This document shows, one piece after another, positions 4,644 through 39,238 of a stretch of 64,000 bases of DNA (positions are counted from its first letter, which is position 1; the number at the start of each line of letters is the position of its first letter). This DNA comes from Spirochaetes bacterium ADurb.BinA120 (GTDB lineage: Bacteria; Spirochaetota; UBA4802; UBA5368): assembly GCA_002069125.1 (NCBI GenBank), contig MVZN01000001.1:71696-135695 (forward strand), read 5' to 3'. The translations under genes were made by a program, and so were the position numbers. Below the pieces are notes generated by a model that ran no database searches, was not told where the DNA came from, and worked only from the letters and a program-made list of their open reading frames with translations.

Positions 4644-5753
4644 GTGGCTACCAAAAGAGATTATTACGAGATACTGAGCGTTCAGAAAAACGCCTCAGAG
4701 GACGAGATCAAGCAGGCGTACAGAAAGCTCGCCCTGAAATATCACCCCGACAAGAACAAAGGCAACGCGGAAGCCGAAGAAAAATTTAAAGAGGCCACAG
4801 AGGCCTATGAAATTCTGCGCGACCCTAAAAAGCGCGCCCAGTATGACAAGTTCGGGCATGAGGGAGTGGCCGGTTTCGAGGGCTTCGGGCGCGGGGCGTA
4901 CACGGACTTTTCGGACATCTTCGGAGATTTCGATATCGGCGATATCTTCGAGGGCTTTTTCGGCGCCGGTTTCAGCGGCAAGGGCAGGGGCAAAAGGCCG
5001 CGCCGTGGCGCGGATATACAGTACGATCTGATCATCGAGCTCGAGGAGGCGGCCACCGGCAAGGAGGCGCAGATAGAGATTCCGCGCAGCGAGACCTGCG
5101 CAACCTGCAACGGCAGCGGCTCTGGCTCGGGGGCCAAACCCGCCGTATGCCCCGTCTGTAACGGCACCGGCCAGATCCGTCAGACCCAGGGATTCTTTTC
5201 CATCACCCAGACGTGTTACAAATGCCGTGGTGAGGGCAAGATAATAACCTCACCCTGTAAAACCTGCGGCGGCTCTGGACTTGTTACGAAAAAACGCAAG
5301 ATCACGGTAAAGATACCGGCGGGTGTCGAATCGGGCTCCCGCCTGAAGATTACCGGCGAGGGCGAGCAGGGGCCTTCGGGCGGGCCTAGAGGCGACCTCT
5401 ACGTGGTGATCCACATCAAAAAGCACCAGGTGTTCGATCGCCATGGTAACGACATACTGAATGTCGTGGATATTTCCTACTCGCTTGCCTGTCTGGGGGG
5501 GGAGATAGAGGTCCAGACGATTACCGGCGGCAAGGTTAAGATGAAGATACCGGCTGGCGCCGAGAACGGCCAGATATTCCGCCTTAAGGGCAATGGCATA
5601 CCCTACTTGGGCTCGTACGGCCGCGGCGACCAGTTGGTCAAGATCAACGTGCGCGTTCCGAAAAAGCTTTCACCGCGCCAGAAGGAACTTCTTCAGGAGC
5701 TCGCGCGCCTGGAGGGCGAGGAGGCCGGCTCCTCGACCAGGCAATTCTACTGA
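4644..5753 (+). CDS. dnaJ: molecular chaperone DnaJ
   Basis: J domain (HPDKN), G/F region, four CxxCxGxG zinc-finger repeats; GTG start. Confidence 0.95.
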
Positions 5754-32142: not shown

Positions 32143-32350
32143 TCCTTCCTTTGTTTCAATGGATTAATACGGGTAGCTTTCCCCGCATTTGTCAAGCGAA
32201 AGACGCCCGTACAATGAAGACGTTTCGCACCTGAAATATAACGGTTTTTTTTCGGAAAAAACTAAAATTTCCGTCTACGAGGCCGTAGGCGGGATGCTTC
32301 TGGAAAAAGGCTTGATTTACGGGAACGCGGGGCCGTACAGTACACGGACC

Positions 32351-33979
32351 ATGGACCAGCTTCCGGGCGAATATCGAATCGTAAAAATATTCTTTCGGTT
32401 TTTTTCTTCGAGGGCTCTAGCGCTCGCGGTTGCGCTTTCGCTTCCAATCGGATGCGGTGACTTCTCGTCAGTGCGCGACCGGCATACGCTGTACATACAT
32501 CTTGGTTCCGAGCCGGGGCATCTCAATCCCATCACCTCCACCGAGGCCGTTGCCTCGTCCATCAACCAGCACATCTACGAAACGCTTCTCGACCGCGATT
32601 ACGATACCGCCGAACTCGTTCCTCAGCTCGCCGAGTCGTGGTCCATATCGCCGGACAGGCTGCGCTACCGCTTCAGGCTTAAAAAGGGCGTATTCTGGAG
32701 CGACGGCGTGGAGCTCACGGCGGACGATATCATTTATTCATTCAGGACCATTAAGGACCCAAAGGTGGCCTGCGCACCCCTTAAGGTGTATTACATCGAT
32801 GTGCGGGAGGTTCGTAAAATCGACCGCTACACCGTGGAGTTCCTATATTCCAAACAGTACTTCAGAGCCCTGGAGATCTGCGGAACCATTCCCATCGTGC
32901 CTGAGCATATCTTCGCCGACGGCACCGACTTCAACACGCATAAAAACAACCGCTTCCCGGTTGGGACCGGGCCTTACAGGTTCGAGCGCTGGGACACGGG
33001 GAAGCGCATAGTGCTCGTCCGAAACGACAGCTACAAGGGGAAGGCGCCCGATCTGCATCGCATAGTGTATCGAATCGTGGCCGAGCCCAATATCGCGCTT
33101 CAAATGGTTAAAAAAGGAGAGATGGACATGATGTCTGTGCGCGCCATACAATGGGTGCGCCAGACTAATTCCGACAGGTTCGTAAAAAATTTTTACAAAC
33201 TCCAGTATTACCTGCCAACCTATAATTACATCGGCTGGAACGCGGCGCGGCCCCTTTTCGCGGATCGGCGGGTCCGGCTTGCCATGACGCACCTGATAAA
33301 CCGCGATGCGATACTCGACAAGCTGCTCTTCGGTATCGGCGAGGTCGTAAGCGGGTCGTCTTATATCTACAGCAAGGGCTACGATAAAAGCATAAAGCCC
33401 TGGCCCTACGACCCGGAGCGTGCGCGTGAGCTTCTGGCGCGTGCCGGCTGGCGCGATACGGACGGCGACGGCATTCTGGACCGGGCGGGCAAAAAGTTCG
33501 CGTTTACCTTTACCATTCCCTCGGGGAGCAAGTTCGCCGAGCGCCTGGGCACCATCATGAAGGAGGACCTCTCGAAGGTCGGAATCGAGATGGACATCAA
33601 CCGCTACGAGTGGGCCGTGTTCGTACAGAAGCTGCACCAGCGCGATTTCGACGCAGTCACCCTGGCCTGGTCGCTCTCATGGGAAGACGACCCATATCAG
33701 CTCTGGCATTCGACGCAGGTGGCGGGCGGATCCAATTTCTGTTCGTTTAAGAACGCCGAGGCCGACGACCTCATCATCCGCCTGCGAAAGGAATTCGACG
33801 AGAAAAAAAGAATCAGGATGTACCACCGCTTTCATCGAATTCTCCACGAAGAGCAGCCGTACACCTTCCTGTACTGCACTCCCGCGCAGGTCGTCGTCAG
33901 CAAACGCTTCAGCGACGTAAAGGTGCACCTGCGCGGCCTCAACTATCTCGAATGGAAGGTCGCCGCGATCGATGATTAA
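32351..33979 (+). CDS. peptide/nickel ABC transporter substrate-binding protein (family 5, OppA/DppA-like), secreted
   Basis: family-5 SBP length and architecture; signal peptide at proposed ATG 32351 (ORF open from 32189). Confidence 0.85.
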   Translation: MDQLPGEYRIVKIFFRFFSSRALALAVALSLPIGCGDFSSVRDRHTLYIHLGSEPGHLNPITSTEAVASSINQHIYETLLDRDYDTAELVPQLAESWSISPDRLRYRFRLKKGVFWSDGVELTADDIIYSFRTIKDPKVACAPLKVYYIDVREVRKIDRYTVEFLYSKQYFRALEICGTIPIVPEHIFADGTDFNTHKNNRFPVGTGPYRFERWDTGKRIVLVRNDSYKGKAPDLHRIVYRIVAEPNIALQMVKKGEMDMMSVRAIQWVRQTNSDRFVKNFYKLQYYLPTYNYIGWNAARPLFADRRVRLAMTHLINRDAILDKLLFGIGEVVSGSSYIYSKGYDKSIKPWPYDPERARELLARAGWRDTDGDGILDRAGKKFAFTFTIPSGSKFAERLGTIMKEDLSKVGIEMDINRYEWAVFVQKLHQRDFDAVTLAWSLSWEDDPYQLWHSTQVAGGSNFCSFKNAEADDLIIRLRKEFDEKKRIRMYHRFHRILHEEQPYTFLYCTPAQVVVSKRFSDVKVHLRGLNYLEWKVAAIDD

Positions 33980-34973
33980 ATACATCCTCAAACGCCTTCT
34001 GCTCATTGTGCCCACCTTTATCGGCATAAGCCTCATCACCTATGCAATGATACGCCTTGCCCCGGGCGACTATACTACGCTTCGAGCCGGACTTCAGGGC
34101 GAGCTCAAAGCGGGAGCTATAGGCAATGAAATAATAGAACAGGAAAAGAGGCTCTACGGGCTCGACAAGCCGGTCATCGTAGGGTACTGGGACTGGTTTT
34201 CGAAACTCGTGGTGTTCGATTTCGGGACATCCCGAAAGGACGGCAGGCCCGTCGCGGAGCGTATCGGCGAGGCGCTTCCCATCACCCTGGCGCTAAACAT
34301 TATAAGCATGATAATAGTGTACATCATTTCCATTCCGGGAGGGATTCTATCGGCGCTCAAAAAGGACTCCCTCTACGACCGGGTCTCGAGCCTGATACTT
34401 TTTGTGCTCTATTCGCTGCCGTCGTTCTGGGTGGGGCTTCTGCTTCTAATGGTGCTTTCGGGCGGAGACTATCTCAACCTGTTTCCGCTGGGCGGGATAG
34501 TCTCCGACTGGGCGGAGGATTTCGGCTTTTTCGACAGGATGTTGAACATTGCCTGGCACCTAATGCTTCCCGTGGCGACCCTCACCTACGGGGGCTTCGC
34601 CTTCCTCTCGCGCTATACGCGGGCCACCATGCTCGAGGTTATAAACCAGCAGTATATCATGACTGCGCGCGCCAAGGGGCTCTCCGAGAAACGCGTGGTC
34701 CTGGTGCACGCGTTTAGAAACTCTCTCGTACCCCTTGTCACGCTTATGGCGACGATCCTCCCCGGGCTTCTTGGAGGAAGCGTCATAGTAGAATCCATCT
34801 TCTCCATCCCCGGTATGGGCATGCTCGCCTTCGAGGCGATACTAGCGCGCGACATTCCGGTCATAATGGCCATCGCCTCTATCTCCGCGGCGCTTACGCT
34901 CCTCGGCATCCTCATCGCCGATATCCTCTACGGCGTGGTCGATCCCCGCATACGGCTGGAGGCAGGGCAATGA
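33972..34973 (+). CDS. ABC transporter permease (OppB/DppB-like)
   Basis: 333 aa, 6 TM, EAA-like loop; ATGA coupling to flanking genes. Confidence 0.9.
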   Translation: MIKYILKRLLLIVPTFIGISLITYAMIRLAPGDYTTLRAGLQGELKAGAIGNEIIEQEKRLYGLDKPVIVGYWDWFSKLVVFDFGTSRKDGRPVAERIGEALPITLALNIISMIIVYIISIPGGILSALKKDSLYDRVSSLILFVLYSLPSFWVGLLLLMVLSGGDYLNLFPLGGIVSDWAEDFGFFDRMLNIAWHLMLPVATLTYGGFAFLSRYTRATMLEVINQQYIMTARAKGLSEKRVVLVHAFRNSLVPLVTLMATILPGLLGGSVIVESIFSIPGMGMLAFEAILARDIPVIMAIASISAALTLLGILIADILYGVVDPRIRLEAGQ

Positions 34974-35953
34974 TCCGCTCCCGAGGCTATTGGGCCGGCG
35001 TATGGAGGGAGTTCCGGCGCAACAGGCTTGCGCTTTCGGGCCTTGTGGTGGTGCTCGCGCTCTTTGTTGTCGCGCTGCTTGCCCCACTTTTGGCCAACGA
35101 TAAAGCCTATATCTATATCTCGCAGGGGAAGGCGTATTTCCCGATTTTATTCGAATATCCGGAGCTCGCCGGCCTAAACTTTCGCGAGGAGTCCGAAAAG
35201 GCCTTCGTCATCATGCCGCCAATTCCTTACACGAGTTCCGAGTACGATCTCGACGCCATAGTCATACCGCCCTCGGCCCGGCACATACTCGGCACGGACG
35301 AACAGGGGCGGGACCTGGCGGCACGCATGATCCATGGTACGCGCGTGTCGATACTCGTCGGCTTTATCGCGGTGTTCATCTATGTTACACTGGGCATAAT
35401 CATCGGCGCGCTCGCGGGCTATTATGGCGGCGTGGTCGACATGCTCATCTCGCGCTTCATCGAAATAATCATTTGCTTTCCGACCTTTTTTCTCATTCTG
35501 ACCATACTGGCTCTCGTCGGCCCGAGCCTTGTAAATGTCATGGTCGTAATAGGGATAACCGGCTGGACGGGAATCGCGCGCATAGTGCGCGGCGAGTTTC
35601 TAAAGGTGCGCGAGATGGAGTTCGTTCAGGCCTCACGAGCCCTTGGCGCGCGAGACCGCTCCATAATTTTCAGGCACATGCTTCCAAACTCGCTCGCGCC
35701 GGTCCTGGTTTCGGCTACCTTCGGCATAGCCTCGACCATCCTTATCGAGTCGTCCCTTTCCTTTCTGGGTTTCGGCGTACAGCCGCCCACTCCGAGCTGG
35801 GGGGATATCCTTTCGCAGTCGCGCGATTTTATGGACTTCGCCTGGTGGCTCACCCTTGTGCCGGGTTTCGCCATCTTTATCACCATAACAGCCTATAATC
35901 TGGTGGGCGAGGGCTTTCAGGACGCGATAGATCCCCGGGCTGTAAGAAAATAG
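34970..35953 (+). CDS. ABC transporter permease (OppC/DppC-like)
   Basis: 327 aa, 6 TM, conserved permease loop. Confidence 0.9.
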   Translation: MIRSRGYWAGVWREFRRNRLALSGLVVVLALFVVALLAPLLANDKAYIYISQGKAYFPILFEYPELAGLNFREESEKAFVIMPPIPYTSSEYDLDAIVIPPSARHILGTDEQGRDLAARMIHGTRVSILVGFIAVFIYVTLGIIIGALAGYYGGVVDMLISRFIEIIICFPTFFLILTILALVGPSLVNVMVVIGITGWTGIARIVRGEFLKVREMEFVQASRALGARDRSIIFRHMLPNSLAPVLVSATFGIASTILIESSLSFLGFGVQPPTPSWGDILSQSRDFMDFAWWLTLVPGFAIFITITAYNLVGEGFQDAIDPRAVRK

Positions 35954-36022: not shown

Positions 36023-36111
36023 AGTAGGCGAAATTATTTGCTTACATGTTTGCCAAAAAAACAAAAATGTGCTTTACATACTCATTTGTATAGTTCTTTA
36101 TAAATTTTTAA

Positions 36112-36143
36112 GGGAATCTCCAAAAATCAGCATTAAGATTCCC
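36112..36143. repeat. 8-bp inverted repeat gggaatct-N16-agattccc in the islet leader
   Basis: exact reverse-complement arms. Confidence 0.55.
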
Positions 36144-36165
36144 ATAAAATGTAACTACAGGCATA

Positions 36166-36222
36166 TTCAATAATTTGGCTTTCCCGCCCGCCTTCGGCGG
36201 ATGGGAAAACCAAATTATTGGA
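36166..36222. repeat. composite stem-loop: 11-12 bp AT-rich inverted repeat (caataatttgg / ccaaattattg) enclosing a GC-rich hairpin
   Basis: outer arms are exact reverse complements; inner ttccc gcc c gcc ttc ggc g g atgggaa pairing; ~30 nt upstream of MTase start. Confidence 0.6.
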
Positions 36223-36254
36223 GGTTGCCTTAATATTAAAGCAGGATTACGGTT

Positions 36255-37568
36255 TTGAATTCTAAAATAATTATTGGCGATAGTCGCTCAATGAGTGAGA
36301 CTCGAGATCACTCAATAGATTTAATAATAACGTCTCCCCCATACTGGCAAATTAAAGATTATGAAAACGTTAAACAAATTGGATTTGGGCAAAACCTGCA
36401 TGAATATTTAAAGGATTTATATAAAGTATGGAAAGAATGTTATAGGGTAATTAAACCTGGAAGAAGGCTATGCATTAACATCGGCGACCAATTTGCTCGA
36501 TCTATTATTTACGGAAGGTATAAAATAATTCCACTTCATTCAGAGTGTATTTCCCAATGTGAAAGTATTGGTTTCGATTTCATGGGATCGATTATTTGGC
36601 AAAAAAAAACTTCAATGAACACGACCGGCGGTGCTACAATAATGGGCTCTTTCCCTTATCCTCCCAATGGAATGGTCGAGATAGATTATGAATACATCCT
36701 TATATTTAAAAAACCGGGTGACAGTATTAAGCAAGATATAGAAATAAAAAAGAAATCTGAGATAACGAAAGAAGAGTGGAAGGAATACTTCTCCGGCCAT
36801 TGGTATTTTGGTGGCGCAAAGCAAATCGAACACCAGGCAATGTTCCCTGATGAACTCCCGAAAAGACTAATTAAAATGTTTTCCTTTTATGGTGAAACTG
36901 TTTTAGACCCATTTTTAGGAAGCGGAACGACTGTAAAAGTGGCATTAGATTTAAACAGAAACGCTGTAGGTTACGAAATCAATGGAGATTACCTATCAAT
37001 AATTAAAAATAAATTAGGTTTCCCCGAAGATTGTTTATTTTCCAATCATTCTCTTGAAATAATAAACCAGAATATAACTATTATAGAAGAGGATAATGAA
37101 GTCCAATATAATCCGAGCGTTCAAGATGCTGATTACAAGATAGATCCAAAATTATTGAAATTTAAAAAAGGAGATAATAGTTATAAAGTCGTTTCAATTG
37201 AAAATAACGACACTCTTATTCTTAATACGGGCTTAAAGGTGAAATTATTAGGAGTTATAATTGACCCTGAAAAAATCGACGAATTAGTAAATTATTTAAA
37301 CGAATTCGTATTGAAAAAAGAGGTAATTCTAAAATATGATAAAAAGTATCGTCCAGTAACAAAAGACATGATTCATGCATATGTTTATCTAAAAAACAAA
37401 ATATTCATAAATAGTTATATTCTTAAATCCGGATTTGCAAAAGTGGATACCCGTACCGACTATGATTTAAGATATAAATTTTCTAATCTAAGAGACAATA
37501 ATGGAGTAATGGATGGCAAAGGAGTGGATATTAAACAGTGCAATGAATCGGTTCCAACTAAATTTTAA
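36255..37568 (+). CDS. beta-class N4-cytosine/N6-adenine DNA methyltransferase (SPPY motif IV first, FxGSGT motif I later) fused to a C-terminal staphylococcal-nuclease (SNase/OB-fold)-like domain
   Basis: N-term IIIGDSRSM...IDLIITSPPYW, DPFLGSGTT at ~aa 218. C-term ~170 aa matches the SNase signature (VSIENNDTLIL...KVKLLGVIIDPE; ...AYVYL...NSYILKSGFAKV). TTG start at 36255; AT-rich codon usage. Confidence 0.85.
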   Translation: MNSKIIIGDSRSMSETRDHSIDLIITSPPYWQIKDYENVKQIGFGQNLHEYLKDLYKVWKECYRVIKPGRRLCINIGDQFARSIIYGRYKIIPLHSECISQCESIGFDFMGSIIWQKKTSMNTTGGATIMGSFPYPPNGMVEIDYEYILIFKKPGDSIKQDIEIKKKSEITKEEWKEYFSGHWYFGGAKQIEHQAMFPDELPKRLIKMFSFYGETVLDPFLGSGTTVKVALDLNRNAVGYEINGDYLSIIKNKLGFPEDCLFSNHSLEIINQNITIIEEDNEVQYNPSVQDADYKIDPKLLKFKKGDNSYKVVSIENNDTLILNTGLKVKLLGVIIDPEKIDELVNYLNEFVLKKEVILKYDKKYRPVTKDMIHAYVYLKNKIFINSYILKSGFAKVDTRTDYDLRYKFSNLRDNNGVMDGKGVDIKQCNESVPTKF

Positions 37569-38145
37569 AAGAAACGTTGGTGCAGTTTCCCAAGAAATCA
37601 GGAAATGTTCGCCAAGATCGGTTGAAGATTGGAAATGCTACTATTTTGAGAAGGTGCGTCCTAAAGAACATATTGAAGATTTAGGAAAGAAGCTATATAT
37701 TAAAATAACAGAAGTAATAGCCGCAGAAGTTGAAGATATTACGGAAGAAGAATGCATACAATATATGTTTAAACTTGTAATCGACCGTACTTTTGACGGA
37801 TACATGACGGAAATAAAGACTATTTACGGGCAATTACAACAAGTCATTGATTTAAAAATTGAACCGGCCCCGGATAAATGGGATAGATTATACAACATTG
37901 ATTTTTTTATAAAAGTAAAAGACAAATATATTGGGCTTCAAATCAAACCAGTAAGTGGAGTATCCCATATACCAGAAATTTTTAAAGAAAGAAACAATCA
38001 AATGTTAACTCATAAAAAATTTACTGAAGAATTTGGCGGTAAGGTATTCTATGTCTATTCTTTAAAAGACGGTGAGAAAAAGAAAATACATAATCAGGAA
38101 GTAATTCAGGGAATTCAAGACGAGATACTTTTCCTAAGCAGGTAA
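37513..38145 (+). CDS. hypothetical protein, candidate restriction endonuclease partner (PD-(D/E)xK-like D...QxK motif)
   Basis: 210 aa, GGAG RBS 6 nt upstream, overlaps MTase 3' end by 56 nt, same AT-rich codon usage; motif NIDFFIKVKDKYIGLQIKP resembles D-x(n)-(E/Q)-x-K. Confidence 0.4.
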   Translation: MAKEWILNSAMNRFQLNFKRNVGAVSQEIRKCSPRSVEDWKCYYFEKVRPKEHIEDLGKKLYIKITEVIAAEVEDITEEECIQYMFKLVIDRTFDGYMTEIKTIYGQLQQVIDLKIEPAPDKWDRLYNIDFFIKVKDKYIGLQIKPVSGVSHIPEIFKERNNQMLTHKKFTEEFGGKVFYVYSLKDGEKKKIHNQEVIQGIQDEILFLSR

Positions 38146-38185
38146 GGCCGACATCCGAGCACAACGAAACGTACCTCCTTGGTTG

Positions 38186-38275: not shown

Positions 38276-39238
38276 ATGAAGGTGGTGATGGCGCAGCATT
38301 CAAGCCCGAAAGGAATATCGGCGAAAAGCATCATCATGGGGGCCGCGGCCGTCCTGGTCGCGGGATTGGCCTCATGCGCCTCACTTAGAGAGGGCGATCC
38401 GGATGTATACTTCCTGTTGCCCAGGGAGTCCGATATTCCCGGATGGGAGATAGTGGACGGACCGCACCGTTTCGATAAAACGAATATGGCCCTGTATATG
38501 GAGTCCGACGCGGCACTGCTAAGGGAGTATAGAGCCTGGAGCGTGGCGATGGCGATTTACAGGCCCCTGGGGGGCAGGCCGGAAACGCTTGCAGTATGGG
38601 TTTACAGGCTTGGTTCGCCCGTAGATGCATTCGGTTTTTACGCCAGAAAGGCGGCCGCTGTAAGCGGAATACCGGCTCCGCCGCTCGGGGGGGACGACAT
38701 AACGGCCTTCAAAAGCGGCCTCCTGCTAAGAAAGGGCGCCCATTTCGTTTCGATCGTCACCGACAGGCCGGAGGCCGGGGCTGATGCGGTAATTTTCGCG
38801 CGAATCGTTCTGGACTCCATACCGCCGGTGGAATCCGACCTGCCCGAGTGGTCCGGCTTGTTCGGCGCCGATGAAAAGAGGAACGATCTCGTCTATTATC
38901 CGAAGGGGGTGACCGGTGTTCCGCTTAGTGTGGAAATGTTCGTTCGCCGGAGGCTGGTCAGGGGGGCGCCTTACGAGGTGTACTACTCGCGAAGGCCGTC
39001 GATTTCATCGGCCATGCGCGATTTTACAGCCCTGCTGGACCGCGACGGAGGCGGCTTTACGCTAGCGAGTTCCGGCGACAGGCAGGCGGCTTTCAGGCTC
39101 CGACCGGACGGCGGGTACGTGTTCGCCGCAAGATACGAGGACGTCATCTTCGGCGTTTTGTTGGCGGGGACGCTGCCGGATGGGAACAGTGTTATCGGCA
39201 TTCTTATGGATGAGATCTCCGGCGCGGGGAAGGATTGA
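38276..39238 (+). CDS. secreted/lipoprotein of unknown function
   Basis: 320 aa, signal peptide with LAGLASC lipobox-like motif. Confidence 0.6.
   Translation: MKVVMAQHSSPKGISAKSIIMGAAAVLVAGLASCASLREGDPDVYFLLPRESDIPGWEIVDGPHRFDKTNMALYMESDAALLREYRAWSVAMAIYRPLGGRPETLAVWVYRLGSPVDAFGFYARKAAAVSGIPAPPLGGDDITAFKSGLLLRKGAHFVSIVTDRPEAGADAVIFARIVLDSIPPVESDLPEWSGLFGADEKRNDLVYYPKGVTGVPLSVEMFVRRRLVRGAPYEVYYSRRPSISSAMRDFTALLDRDGGGFTLASSGDRQAAFRLRPDGGYVFAARYEDVIFGVLLAGTLPDGNSVIGILMDEISGAGKD

What the first reader, a model, noticed from the sequence alone, without database searches (positions are those of the whole stretch)
36255..37568. DNA methyltransferase fused to a staphylococcal-nuclease-like domain
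The first ~265 aa are a textbook beta-class amino-MTase (SPPY before FxGSGT). The last ~170 aa are not a typical target-recognition region. They match the SNase/thermonuclease signature, including most Ca2+ and catalytic equivalents: E/D in IENNDT, K in KVKLL, and D and E in IIDPE. Arg87 in the YGRGLAYIY region appears replaced, but the GFAKV strand is kept. The domain is therefore either an active nuclease tethered to its own protective MTase (a single-chain R-M-like enzyme) or an OB-fold DNA-binding module recruited as a TRD. I do not recognise either as a described arrangement.
Basis: partly seen in the sequence, partly recalled or inferred. Interest (0 to 1): 0.7.

Follow-up and report, generated by a model that had tools for sequence, protein, structure and literature searches.

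The report
Methyltransferase with a dead nuclease-like domain
This is an ordinary two-gene restriction-modification cassette, probably CTAG-specific, whose methyltransferase carries a staphylococcal-nuclease-fold domain that has lost its catalytic residues, while DNA cutting falls to a separate MjaI-type enzyme encoded next door.

Summary
The ORF at 36255-37568 is real (437 aa). Its N-terminal half is a beta-class amino-methyltransferase, with SPPY before FLGSGT.

- 35 of 36 family members hit Pfam SNase.
- A family profile retrieves genuine SNases at E 1e-14 to 1e-18.

The nuclease reading does not hold. Across 128 relatives, D40 is never Asp, E43 is never Glu (deleted in 90), R87 is never Arg, and D21 is Asp in only 37. 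The catalytic loop is shortened, while fold-determining residues stay above 95% conserved. The query's "DPE" lies in a variable indel segment.

It overlaps the methyltransferase gene by 56 nt. This gene pair is conserved in 74 of 80 related loci across bacteria and archaea.

The pair sits in a 33% GC island in a ~56% GC genome. CTAG is the most depleted palindromic tetramer in the window (O/E 0.20).

Best reading: a mobile type II system, probably CTAG/m4C, whose methyltransferase uses a degenerate SNase-like OB domain as an accessory DNA-binding module. The architecture is widespread, and I found no description of it in the literature I could search. Interest is modest.

The parts
36040..38150 (.). 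Low-GC island (GC 0.26-0.40 against 0.52-0.63 in the flanks) holding the two-gene R-M cassette
   Evidence: Composition profiles. Similarity to the nearest relative from a different context (L001) covers exactly 36256-38140 at 78.5% nt identity, with unrelated flanks.
36255..37568 (+). M gene: 437-aa beta-class amino-methyltransferase with a C-terminal SNase-like domain
   Evidence: ORF. Pfam N6_N4_Mtase E 4e-46. Homologues at 57-96% identity, covering nearly the full length.
36255..37064 (+). Methyltransferase catalytic domain (aa 1-270). SPPY motif IV at 36333-36344; FLGSGT motif I at 36912-36929.
   Evidence: Pfam aa 21-251. PDB 2ZIE TTHA0409 aligns to aa 5-254 at E 2.4e-52. Foldseek E 2.7e-21, TM(target) 0.82. 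Motifs are invariant in the family and coordinates were verified.
37065..37178 (+). Interdomain linker (aa 271-308) with the conserved motif Y285-x-P287-x-[IV]-x-D291-A292-x-x-K-I296-x-P298...F303
   Evidence: Invariant or near-invariant columns in A1/A2. Modest pLDDT, 51-69.
37179..37502 (+). Degenerate SNase-like (OB-fold plus helices) domain, aa 309-416, with catalytic residues lost
37503..37568 (+). Disordered 21-aa tail (aa 417-437) plus stop codon. It reads through the start of the R gene in another frame.
   Evidence: pLDDT below 50. Most relatives (410-416 aa) end before it. The overlap with R is 56 nt.
37513..38145 (+). R gene: 210-aa MjaI-family type II restriction endonuclease
   Evidence: Pfam RE_MjaI PF09568 E 1.4e-47. 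An MjaI-family REase is adjacent to the MTase in 74/80 related loci, 73 of them immediately downstream on the same strand.
36168..36220 (+). Stable hairpin (25-nt arms) in the AT-rich leader, 35 nt upstream of the M start. Role unknown; may not belong to the system.
   Evidence: Inverted repeat I1. Fold -46.4 kcal/mol, z -5.8. One compensatory pair change in strain variant L082; absent from other cassette copies.

Best explanation
The region is a horizontally acquired, two-gene type II restriction-modification cassette of the MjaI family, which recognises CTAG.

Gene 1 (36255-37568) encodes the protective methyltransferase. It is a beta-class amino-MTase with an SPPY catalytic motif, predicted to make N4-methylcytosine in CTAG. 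Gene 2 (37513-38145, overlapping by 56 nt and probably co-transcribed) encodes the MjaI-type endonuclease that does the cutting.

The last third of the methyltransferase is a true evolutionary descendant of the staphylococcal-nuclease fold. It has lost its Ca2+-binding and catalytic residues and most of its catalytic loop, so it is not a nuclease.

My inference is that it acts as an accessory, largely sequence-independent DNA-binding module that helps the MTase hold DNA, possibly the non-target strand. [quoted passage not shown]

How sure each step is:
- Shown by computation: the fold, the homology, the loss of catalytic residues, the adjacent REase, the conserved pairing, and the mobility of the cassette.
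- Inferred: CTAG/m4C specificity (about 0.8) and the DNA-binding role of the domain (about 0.55).
For: - Gene identities: Pfam N6_N4_Mtase E 4e-46 and RE_MjaI E 1.4e-47.
- Inactivation, from 128 relatives: D40 is never D (K/R in 78); E43 is never E (gap in 90); R87 is never R (T in 80); D21 is D in 37. The loop is 8-10 aa against 13-19 in real SNases. Meanwhile A90, Y91, Y93, N100 and G107 are 95-100% conserved.
- DNA-binding plausibility: the R35 position stays basic (K 110, R 13). The former acidic D40 position is K/R in 61%. The domain pI is 9.3 and the family median net charge is +6.
- Conserved M-R module: 74/80 loci, with gaps from -54 to +292 nt.
- Mobility: a 33% GC island in a ~56% GC genome. 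Identity with L001 is confined to the two genes.
- CTAG: it is the most depleted palindromic tetramer (9 observed, 46.1 expected), and the island has none. MjaI cuts CTAG (PMC2615612). M.MjaI, M.MthZI and HVO_0794 are SPPY beta-class m4C CTAG MTases (PMC5867850, PMC11033074).
Against: - No biochemical data exist for any member of this fused family as far as I could find.
- The DNA-binding role is inferred from fold ancestry and charge only. Most SNase substrate-contact positions (K84, Y85, R87, Y113, Y115) are not conserved, so any DNA binding would use a remodelled surface.
- The interdomain geometry is uncertain. The full-length model has pTM 0.64, four of the five models have pLDDT of 55 or less, and I could not inspect coordinates.
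- CTAG depletion is common in bacteria whether or not they have an R-M system, so it is weak evidence for specificity.
- The window's REase belongs to a divergent MjaI subfamily (Pfam E 1e-47 against ~1e-70 for the canonical subfamily), so its specificity could differ from CTAG.
- The query itself has Asp at the D21 position and a D-P-E string nearby, so residual metal binding in this particular protein cannot be formally excluded.
Confidence: 0.65

Rival explanations
1. The SNase-like domain is a protein-protein module. It would mediate MTase dimerisation, or dock onto or restrain the MjaI-type endonuclease. That could couple R activity to M availability in a cassette that has no controller (C) protein.
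For: - The domain co-occurs almost always with an MjaI-family REase (74/80 loci).
- No C-protein-like ORF lies between or beside the genes.
- Beta-class MTases generally work as dimers (PMC7544214).
- SNase DNA-contact residues are mostly not conserved.
Against: - Six of 80 loci show no MjaI-family REase next to the MTase, yet keep the domain. L059 and L071 have 5 kb of downstream sequence, and L039 has an EcoRV-family gene instead.
- A second MTase subfamily carries the same domain, but its neighbours were not examined.
- Positive charge and a retained basic residue at the R35 position fit nucleic-acid binding better.
- No interaction was modelled.
Confidence: 0.17
2. The SNase-like domain, together with the conserved linker motif, is the sequence-reading element (TRD) that gives the MTase its target specificity.
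For:
- The linker (Y-x-P-x-I-x-D-A-x-x-K-I-x-P) and several polar residues of the domain (K355, D362, K380, N381, N386, K391, D398) are nearly invariant across the family. That is what one would expect if they read one fixed sequence.
Against: - In beta-class MTases the TRD lies between the catalytic and AdoMet-binding halves. Here that internal region (aa ~110-195) is present and extremely conserved (WQKKTxMNTTGGA...PYPPNG).
- TTHA0409 (2ZIE) matches aa 5-254 without any C-terminal domain.
- Characterised CTAG MTases of 303-364 aa are too short to carry it (PMC5867850).
Confidence: 0.13
3. The domain is an active nuclease, making the protein a single-chain restriction-and-modification enzyme.
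For: - The query keeps Asp at the D21 position and Lys at R35, and has a D-P-E string near the D40-E43 region.
- Homology to a nuclease family is genuine.
Against: - D40, E43 and R87 equivalents are absent in all 128 relatives, and the catalytic loop is shortened.
- The D-P-E string is out of register and is not conserved even among the closest relatives (ILNPYK, LIDSEK, IKDSQR).
- A dedicated REase gene is present and conserved beside it.
- Staphylococcal nuclease itself is not sequence-specific (general knowledge), so an active copy would lack the site specificity a restriction activity needs.
Confidence: 0.03

Closest known systems
MjaI / MthZI type II restriction-modification systems (CTAG; M.MjaI and M.MthZI are beta-class m4C MTases)
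   Same: - The REase belongs to the same Pfam family (RE_MjaI, E 1.4e-47).
- The MTase is beta-class with SPPY, as in M.MthZI, M.MjaI and HVO_0794 (PMC5867850).
- Both are two-gene cassettes.
- CTAG is strongly depleted in the host window.
   Different: - The characterised CTAG MTases are 303-364 aa (PMC5867850), too short for the ~165-aa linker plus SNase-like extension found here.
- The window's REase is in a divergent subfamily.
- Specificity has not been tested for this family.
TTHA0409 of Thermus thermophilus HB8 (PDB 2ZIE/2ZIF/2ZIG), a putative beta-class DNA methylase
   Same: It is the closest solved relative of the MTase half: phmmer E 2.4e-52 over aa 5-254, and Foldseek E 2.7e-21 with TM(target) 0.82.
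   Different: It is 297 aa with no SNase-like C-terminal domain. No solved structure covers both domains; the best TM-score normalised to the query is 0.46.
Staphylococcal nuclease / thermonuclease family (Pfam PF00565)
   Same: - Detectable sequence homology.
- Conserved structural residues A90, Y91, Y93, N100 and G107.
   Different: - Catalytic and Ca2+ residues D40, E43 and R87 are absent, and D21 is variable.
- The loop after strand 3 is shortened to 8-10 residues.
- Y113 is deleted and Y115 is not conserved.
- The domain is intracellular and fused to an MTase, not secreted.
Catalytically inactive SNase domains of eukaryotic Tudor-SN / extended-Tudor proteins
   Different: They are eukaryotic, bind RNA or proteins, and have a Tudor insertion. 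There is no indication of direct descent; the loss of activity looks independent.
[quoted passage not shown]
   Same: CcrM is a beta-class amino-MTase with an extra C-terminal domain that binds DNA nonspecifically (PMC6787082 abstract). That is the role I infer here.
   Different: - CcrM is an orphan m6A MTase (GANTC), not part of an R-M pair.

Membership tests
Beta-class N4/N6 amino DNA methyltransferase (Pfam N6_N4_Mtase) | Significant match to the family profile over the whole catalytic domain | tested here: met
   PF01555 E 4e-46, 158 bits against a cut-off of 26.7, profile positions 1-220 of 221.
Beta-class N4/N6 amino DNA methyltransferase (Pfam N6_N4_Mtase) | Motif IV ((S/D)PPY) lies N-terminal to motif I (FxGxG), the circular permutation typical of class beta | tested here: met
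   SPPY at aa 27-30 and FLGSGT at aa 220-225. Both are invariant in 48 aligned relatives.
Beta-class N4/N6 amino DNA methyltransferase (Pfam N6_N4_Mtase) | Methyl transfer to DNA, and the identity of the modified base (m4C or m6A) | not testable with these tools
   m4C is inferred only from the SPPY motif shared with characterised m4C CTAG MTases (PMC5867850).
MjaI-type type II R-M system (CTAG) | A REase of the RE_MjaI family is encoded next to the MTase | tested here: met
   ORF 37513-38145, PF09568 E 1.4e-47. The pairing is conserved in 74/80 related loci.
MjaI-type type II R-M system (CTAG) | Recognition and cleavage of CTAG, and protection by CTAG methylation | not testable with these tools
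   Indirect only: CTAG O/E is 0.20, the lowest of the 16 palindromic tetramers, and the island has no CTAG.
MjaI-type type II R-M system (CTAG) | MTase architecture like M.MjaI/M.MthZI (single-domain, 303-364 aa) | tested here: not met
   The protein is 437 aa with an extra linker and SNase-like domain. The archetype sizes come from PMC5867850; the archetype sequences were not compared directly.
Staphylococcal nuclease (SNase/thermonuclease) family, as a fold/homology superfamily | SNase fold: a five-stranded OB barrel plus three helices in SNase order | tested here: met
   [not shown]
Staphylococcal nuclease (SNase/thermonuclease) family, as a fold/homology superfamily | Statistically supported sequence homology to PF00565 members | tested here: met
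   The query alone is below threshold. However, 35/36 relatives hit PF00565, best E 2.9e-6, and the family profile finds genuine SNases at E 1e-14 to 1e-18 in a 1.84-billion-protein library.
Staphylococcal nuclease as an enzyme (active Ca2+-dependent nuclease) | Ca2+ ligands D21, D40 (and T41 carbonyl) and catalytic E43, R35 and R87 are conserved | tested here: not met
   Query residues: D21=D, R35=K, D40=I, E43=P, R87=M. Family of 128: D40 never D, E43 never E (90 gaps), R87 never R, D21 = D in 37. All five genuine SNase domains aligned alongside keep D21, R35, E43 and R87.
Staphylococcal nuclease as an enzyme (active Ca2+-dependent nuclease) | Nuclease activity in vitro | not testable with these tools
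   Needs purified protein.

The most novel reading that the evidence does not exclude
The degenerate SNase-like domain is not just a passive DNA clamp. It would be a regulatory or sensing element specific to MjaI-type cassettes. For example, it might bind the partner endonuclease, or the unpaired or non-target strand at CTAG sites, so that restriction is licensed only once methylation capacity is in place. That would be a protein-level substitute for the controller proteins that other R-M systems use. Less likely, it could retain a non-canonical, metal-independent or differently sited nuclease or nicking activity. Either case would make this very widespread family a new functional class of MTase accessory domain.
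Probability: 0.1. Interest if true: 0.6.

Novelty: new variant of a known kind. Interest (0 to 1): 0.3.

Why it matters
The result turns an apparent 'single-chain restriction-modification enzyme' into a conventional two-gene type II system, so no new defence principle is involved.

What remains of interest is modest but real. A very large, phylum-spanning family of MjaI-associated methyltransferases carries an inactivated staphylococcal-nuclease domain. The family has at least 269 species genomes and 1,744 cluster representatives for the domain, and by record titles many members are thermophiles or hydrothermal MAGs. I found no published description of this domain in MTases, and no solved structure includes it.

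It is a prokaryotic example of a nuclease fold recycled into a non-catalytic module, parallel to eukaryotic Tudor-SN/eTudor. It could be a tractable model for how accessory DNA-binding domains tune beta-class MTases, for example at high temperature.

For annotation, the practical point is that a weak SNase hit on these MTases should not be read as nuclease activity.

Tried and rejected
- Single-sequence searches of the C-terminal region (Pfam, NCBIfam) gave only sub-threshold SNase/NucI/EcnA hits and could not decide the question. Family-level methods were needed.
- The profile search against PDB sequences gave SNase as top hit, but only at E 0.023 and only for the C-terminal half of the domain.
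- A tblastn of the window's REase against the 80 loci at 1e-5 suggested that 23 loci lacked a REase. This was an artefact of divergence: Pfam showed most of them encode a canonical MjaI-family REase, and the recount gave 74/80.
- A tblastn of the REase against plasmids, meant to reach pFZ1/MthZI, found only two Paenibacillus megaplasmid copies with no adjacent MTase of this type. So M.MthZI and M.MjaI sequences could not be compared directly, and their lack of the domain rests on the sizes quoted in PMC5867850.
- Literature searches for the fusion found nothing relevant. That is not proof of absence, because subscription journals and REBASE are not covered.
- The Rfam scan of the whole window found nothing.
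- The promoter/terminator scan of the island gave no more sites than shuffled sequence.
- Rejected: the idea that the conserved 21-aa tail is functional. It is disordered, absent from most relatives, and overlaps the conserved start of the R gene in another frame.

Full report
**1. What is at the coordinates**

The ORF 36255..37568 (+) exists. It starts at TTG and encodes 437 aa.

Pfam places N6_N4_Mtase on aa 21-251 (E 4e-46). SPPY (aa 27-30) comes before FLGSGT (aa 220-225), which is the beta-class motif order. Both motifs are invariant in 48 aligned relatives.

The nearest solved protein is the 297-aa TTHA0409 of Thermus thermophilus (2ZIE). It aligns only to aa 5-254 (E 2.4e-52; Foldseek E 2.7e-21). 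The last ~180 residues are therefore an extra.

**2. Is the extra part SNase-like?**

For the query alone the Pfam SNase match is below threshold (13-15 bits against 21; E 0.03-0.14). NCBIfam gives only weak NucI/EcnA hits. On that basis alone, chance could not be excluded. Family-level evidence settles it.

- A database search returned thousands of homologues. The best 120 are 61-96% identical, and 118 of them are near full-length at 399-437 aa.
- From these I aligned 36 diverse C-terminal regions (alignment A1).
- 35 of the 36 hit PF00565 individually, best E 2.9e-6, and no other family recurs.
- The A1 profile's best PDB sequence hit is staphylococcal nuclease (E 0.023).
- Searched exhaustively against 1.84 billion representatives, the A1 profile finds 1,744 proteins at E<=1e-3.
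- Those hits include proteins that Pfam scores as unambiguous SNases: P0203, P0220, P0247 and P0254, at PF00565 E 1e-40 to 1e-48. My profile scores them at E 2e-18 to 2e-14.
- An AlphaFold2 model of aa 281-437 is confident over the core (pLDDT ~90 for aa 310-415). Its element order is the SNase one.
- In the full-length model the same domain hits SNase variants separately from the MTase half. No solved structure covers both halves.

**3. Is it a nuclease?**

I aligned 128 family members with S. aureus nuclease and five genuine SNase domains. The S. aureus sequence was typed from my own knowledge.

| SNase position | Genuine SNases | Query | Family of 128 |
|---|---|---|---|
| D21 | D | D | D in 37 |
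| R35 | R | K | K 110, R 13 |
| D40 | D/N | I | never D; K/R in 78 |
| E43 | E | P | never E; gap in 90 |
| R87 | R | M | never R; T in 80 |
| Segment after strand 3 | 13-19 residues | 10 | 8-10 |

Y113 is deleted and Y115 is not conserved.

By contrast, the fold-determining residues are 95-100% conserved: A90, Y91, Y93, N100 and G107.

The query's 'IIDPE' sits in a two-residue-longer variant of the shortened segment (37 of 128 members). It is out of register with D-x-P-E. Even the nearest relatives read ILNPYK, LIDSEK or IKDSQR there.

The pattern is that of a fold kept under selection with the active site abandoned. The domain is basic (pI 9.3; family median net charge +6). The former acidic D40 position is usually Lys or Arg.

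**4.

The next ORF, 37513..38145 (+), encodes 210 aa and overlaps the M gene by 56 nt. It is an MjaI-family restriction endonuclease (PF09568 E 1.4e-47).

MjaI is an active CTAG-specific enzyme (PMC2615612). M.MjaI, M.MthZI and HVO_0794 are beta-class SPPY MTases making m4C in CTAG (PMC5867850; PMC11033074).

At least 269 species genomes encode a relative of the MTase. By record titles they come from many bacterial and archaeal phyla, and many are thermophiles or hydrothermal MAGs. In the 80 best loci, an MjaI-family REase is adjacent in 74. In 73 of those it lies immediately downstream on the same strand, with gaps from -54 to +292 nt.

The REases fall into two subfamilies. The window's is the more divergent one.

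The M protein's last 21 residues are disordered and most relatives lack them. They appear to be a read-through across the start of R.

**5. Context**

The two genes lie in a ~2.1-kb island of 26-40% GC, in a genome of ~56% GC.

Nucleotide similarity to the nearest relative from a different genomic context (L001, a Spirochaetes MAG) runs exactly from the M start to the R stop (36256-38140, 78.5%). The flanks are unrelated. A second contig, L082, is the same insertion in a closely related strain (95.6% identity including the flanks). The cassette therefore moves as a unit.

CTAG is the most depleted of the 16 palindromic tetramers in the window (9 observed, 46.1 expected). None occurs in the island. 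This fits CTAG specificity but is not specific evidence.

**6. Mechanism**

Shown by computation: this is a conventional type II M + R pair, and the MTase has a catalytically dead SNase-derived domain.

[quoted passage not shown] The arguments are:
- the nucleic-acid-binding ancestry of the fold;
- the retained basic residue at R35;
- the charge reversal at D40;
- the overall basic character of the domain;
- the fact that the closest solved homologue of the MTase core (TTHA0409, a putative methylase) has no such domain.

The conserved linker motif (Y285-x-P-x-[IV]-x-D-A-x-x-K-I-x-P...F303) may contribute. It is not explained.

Rivals:
- a protein-protein or regulatory role, 0.17;
- a true target-recognition role, 0.13;
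- an active nuclease, 0.03.

**7. Comparison with known systems, and novelty**

- The system is an MjaI-type type II R-M by its REase family and its MTase class.
- It departs from the archetype in MTase architecture. Characterised CTAG MTases are 303-364 aa (PMC5867850), too short for this extension.
- The domain belongs to the SNase superfamily by fold and homology. It fails the test for an active SNase.
- The closest conceptual precedents are the inactive SNase domains of Tudor-SN/eTudor (PMC7641849) and the C-terminal DNA-binding domain of CcrM.
- I found no paper describing an MTase-SNase-like fusion.
- The architecture is nonetheless abundant in databases. Some members already carry automatic PF00565+PF01555 hits.

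I rate it a new variant of a known kind, of modest interest (0.3). The main value of this analysis is to show that the 'single-chain R-M enzyme' reading is wrong.

Noticed in passing
window 36168-36220 (within the AT-rich leader 36040-36254): A very stable hairpin with 25-nt arms, 88% complementary, and a 3-nt loop sits 35 nt upstream of the M start. The surrounding 121 nt fold at -46.4 kcal/mol (z -5.8). The strain variant L082 carries a compensatory pair change (TTTGG/CCAAA to TTAGG/CCTAA). The hairpin is absent from the other cassette copies, has no T-run on either side and has no Rfam match. Its function is unknown.
   Followed up: partly
window 37503-37568 and 37513-37560: The 21-aa C-terminal tail of the MTase (GVMDGKGVDIKQCNESVPTKF) overlaps the conserved N-terminus of the REase in another frame. 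Relatives with a similar tail ('GKGMDIKQCNES') are those whose M gene overlaps R, and shorter relatives stop before R. The tail's conservation is probably a by-product of the overlapping gene.
   Followed up: partly
window 37065-37178 (aa 271-308): The interdomain linker carries a nearly invariant motif (Y285, P287, D291, A292, I296, P298, F303) with only moderate predicted order. A second MTase subfamily (P0173, P0186, P0231, P0234) has a related 'LPYxFxDP...KIDPKKLxFGSKI' linker before the same SNase-like domain. The role is unknown.
   Followed up: no
L039:2798-3673: In one relative (a Thermotogota MAG), the gene immediately downstream of the SNase-domain MTase is an EcoRV-family endonuclease (Pfam E 2.6e-105) instead of an MjaI-family one. 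This could be partner swapping or a neighbouring second system.
   Followed up: no
P0247 (707 aa), P0201 (1096 aa), P0203, P0254, P0220: The domain profile also retrieved proteins with tandem SNase domains. P0247 has five, P0220, P0203 and P0254 have two each, and P0201 has seven matching stretches after FecR and HEAT regions without a Pfam SNase call. Some have N-termini that look like signal peptides by eye. In P0203 one repeat has N in place of D40.
   Followed up: partly
P0217, P0226 (ABC_tran + SNase-like), P0261 (4Fe-4S + SNase-like), P0197 (RNase_T + SNase-like): The same degenerate SNase-like domain appears to be fused to unrelated N-terminal domains in a few metagenomic proteins. These may be real fusions or gene-calling or assembly chimeras.
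   Followed up: no
window, whole (CTAG at 5386, 5766, 7636, 13241, 32417, 34842, 39062, 56737, 60240): CTAG occurs only 9 times in 64 kb against 46 expected from trinucleotide frequencies (O/E 0.20). That is far lower than any other palindromic tetramer; the next lowest is ACGT at 0.66.
   Followed up: yes
window 32189-35953: Directly upstream of the island are three co-oriented ORFs that look by eye like a peptide ABC transporter: a substrate-binding protein and two permeases. One permease has a 44%-identical relative in L054. The cassette sits between this operon and a 320-aa hypothetical gene (38276-39238). The strain variant L082 has the same insertion site.
   Followed up: partly
window 1-64000: No Rfam family reaches its gathering score anywhere in the window on either strand.
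   Followed up: yes
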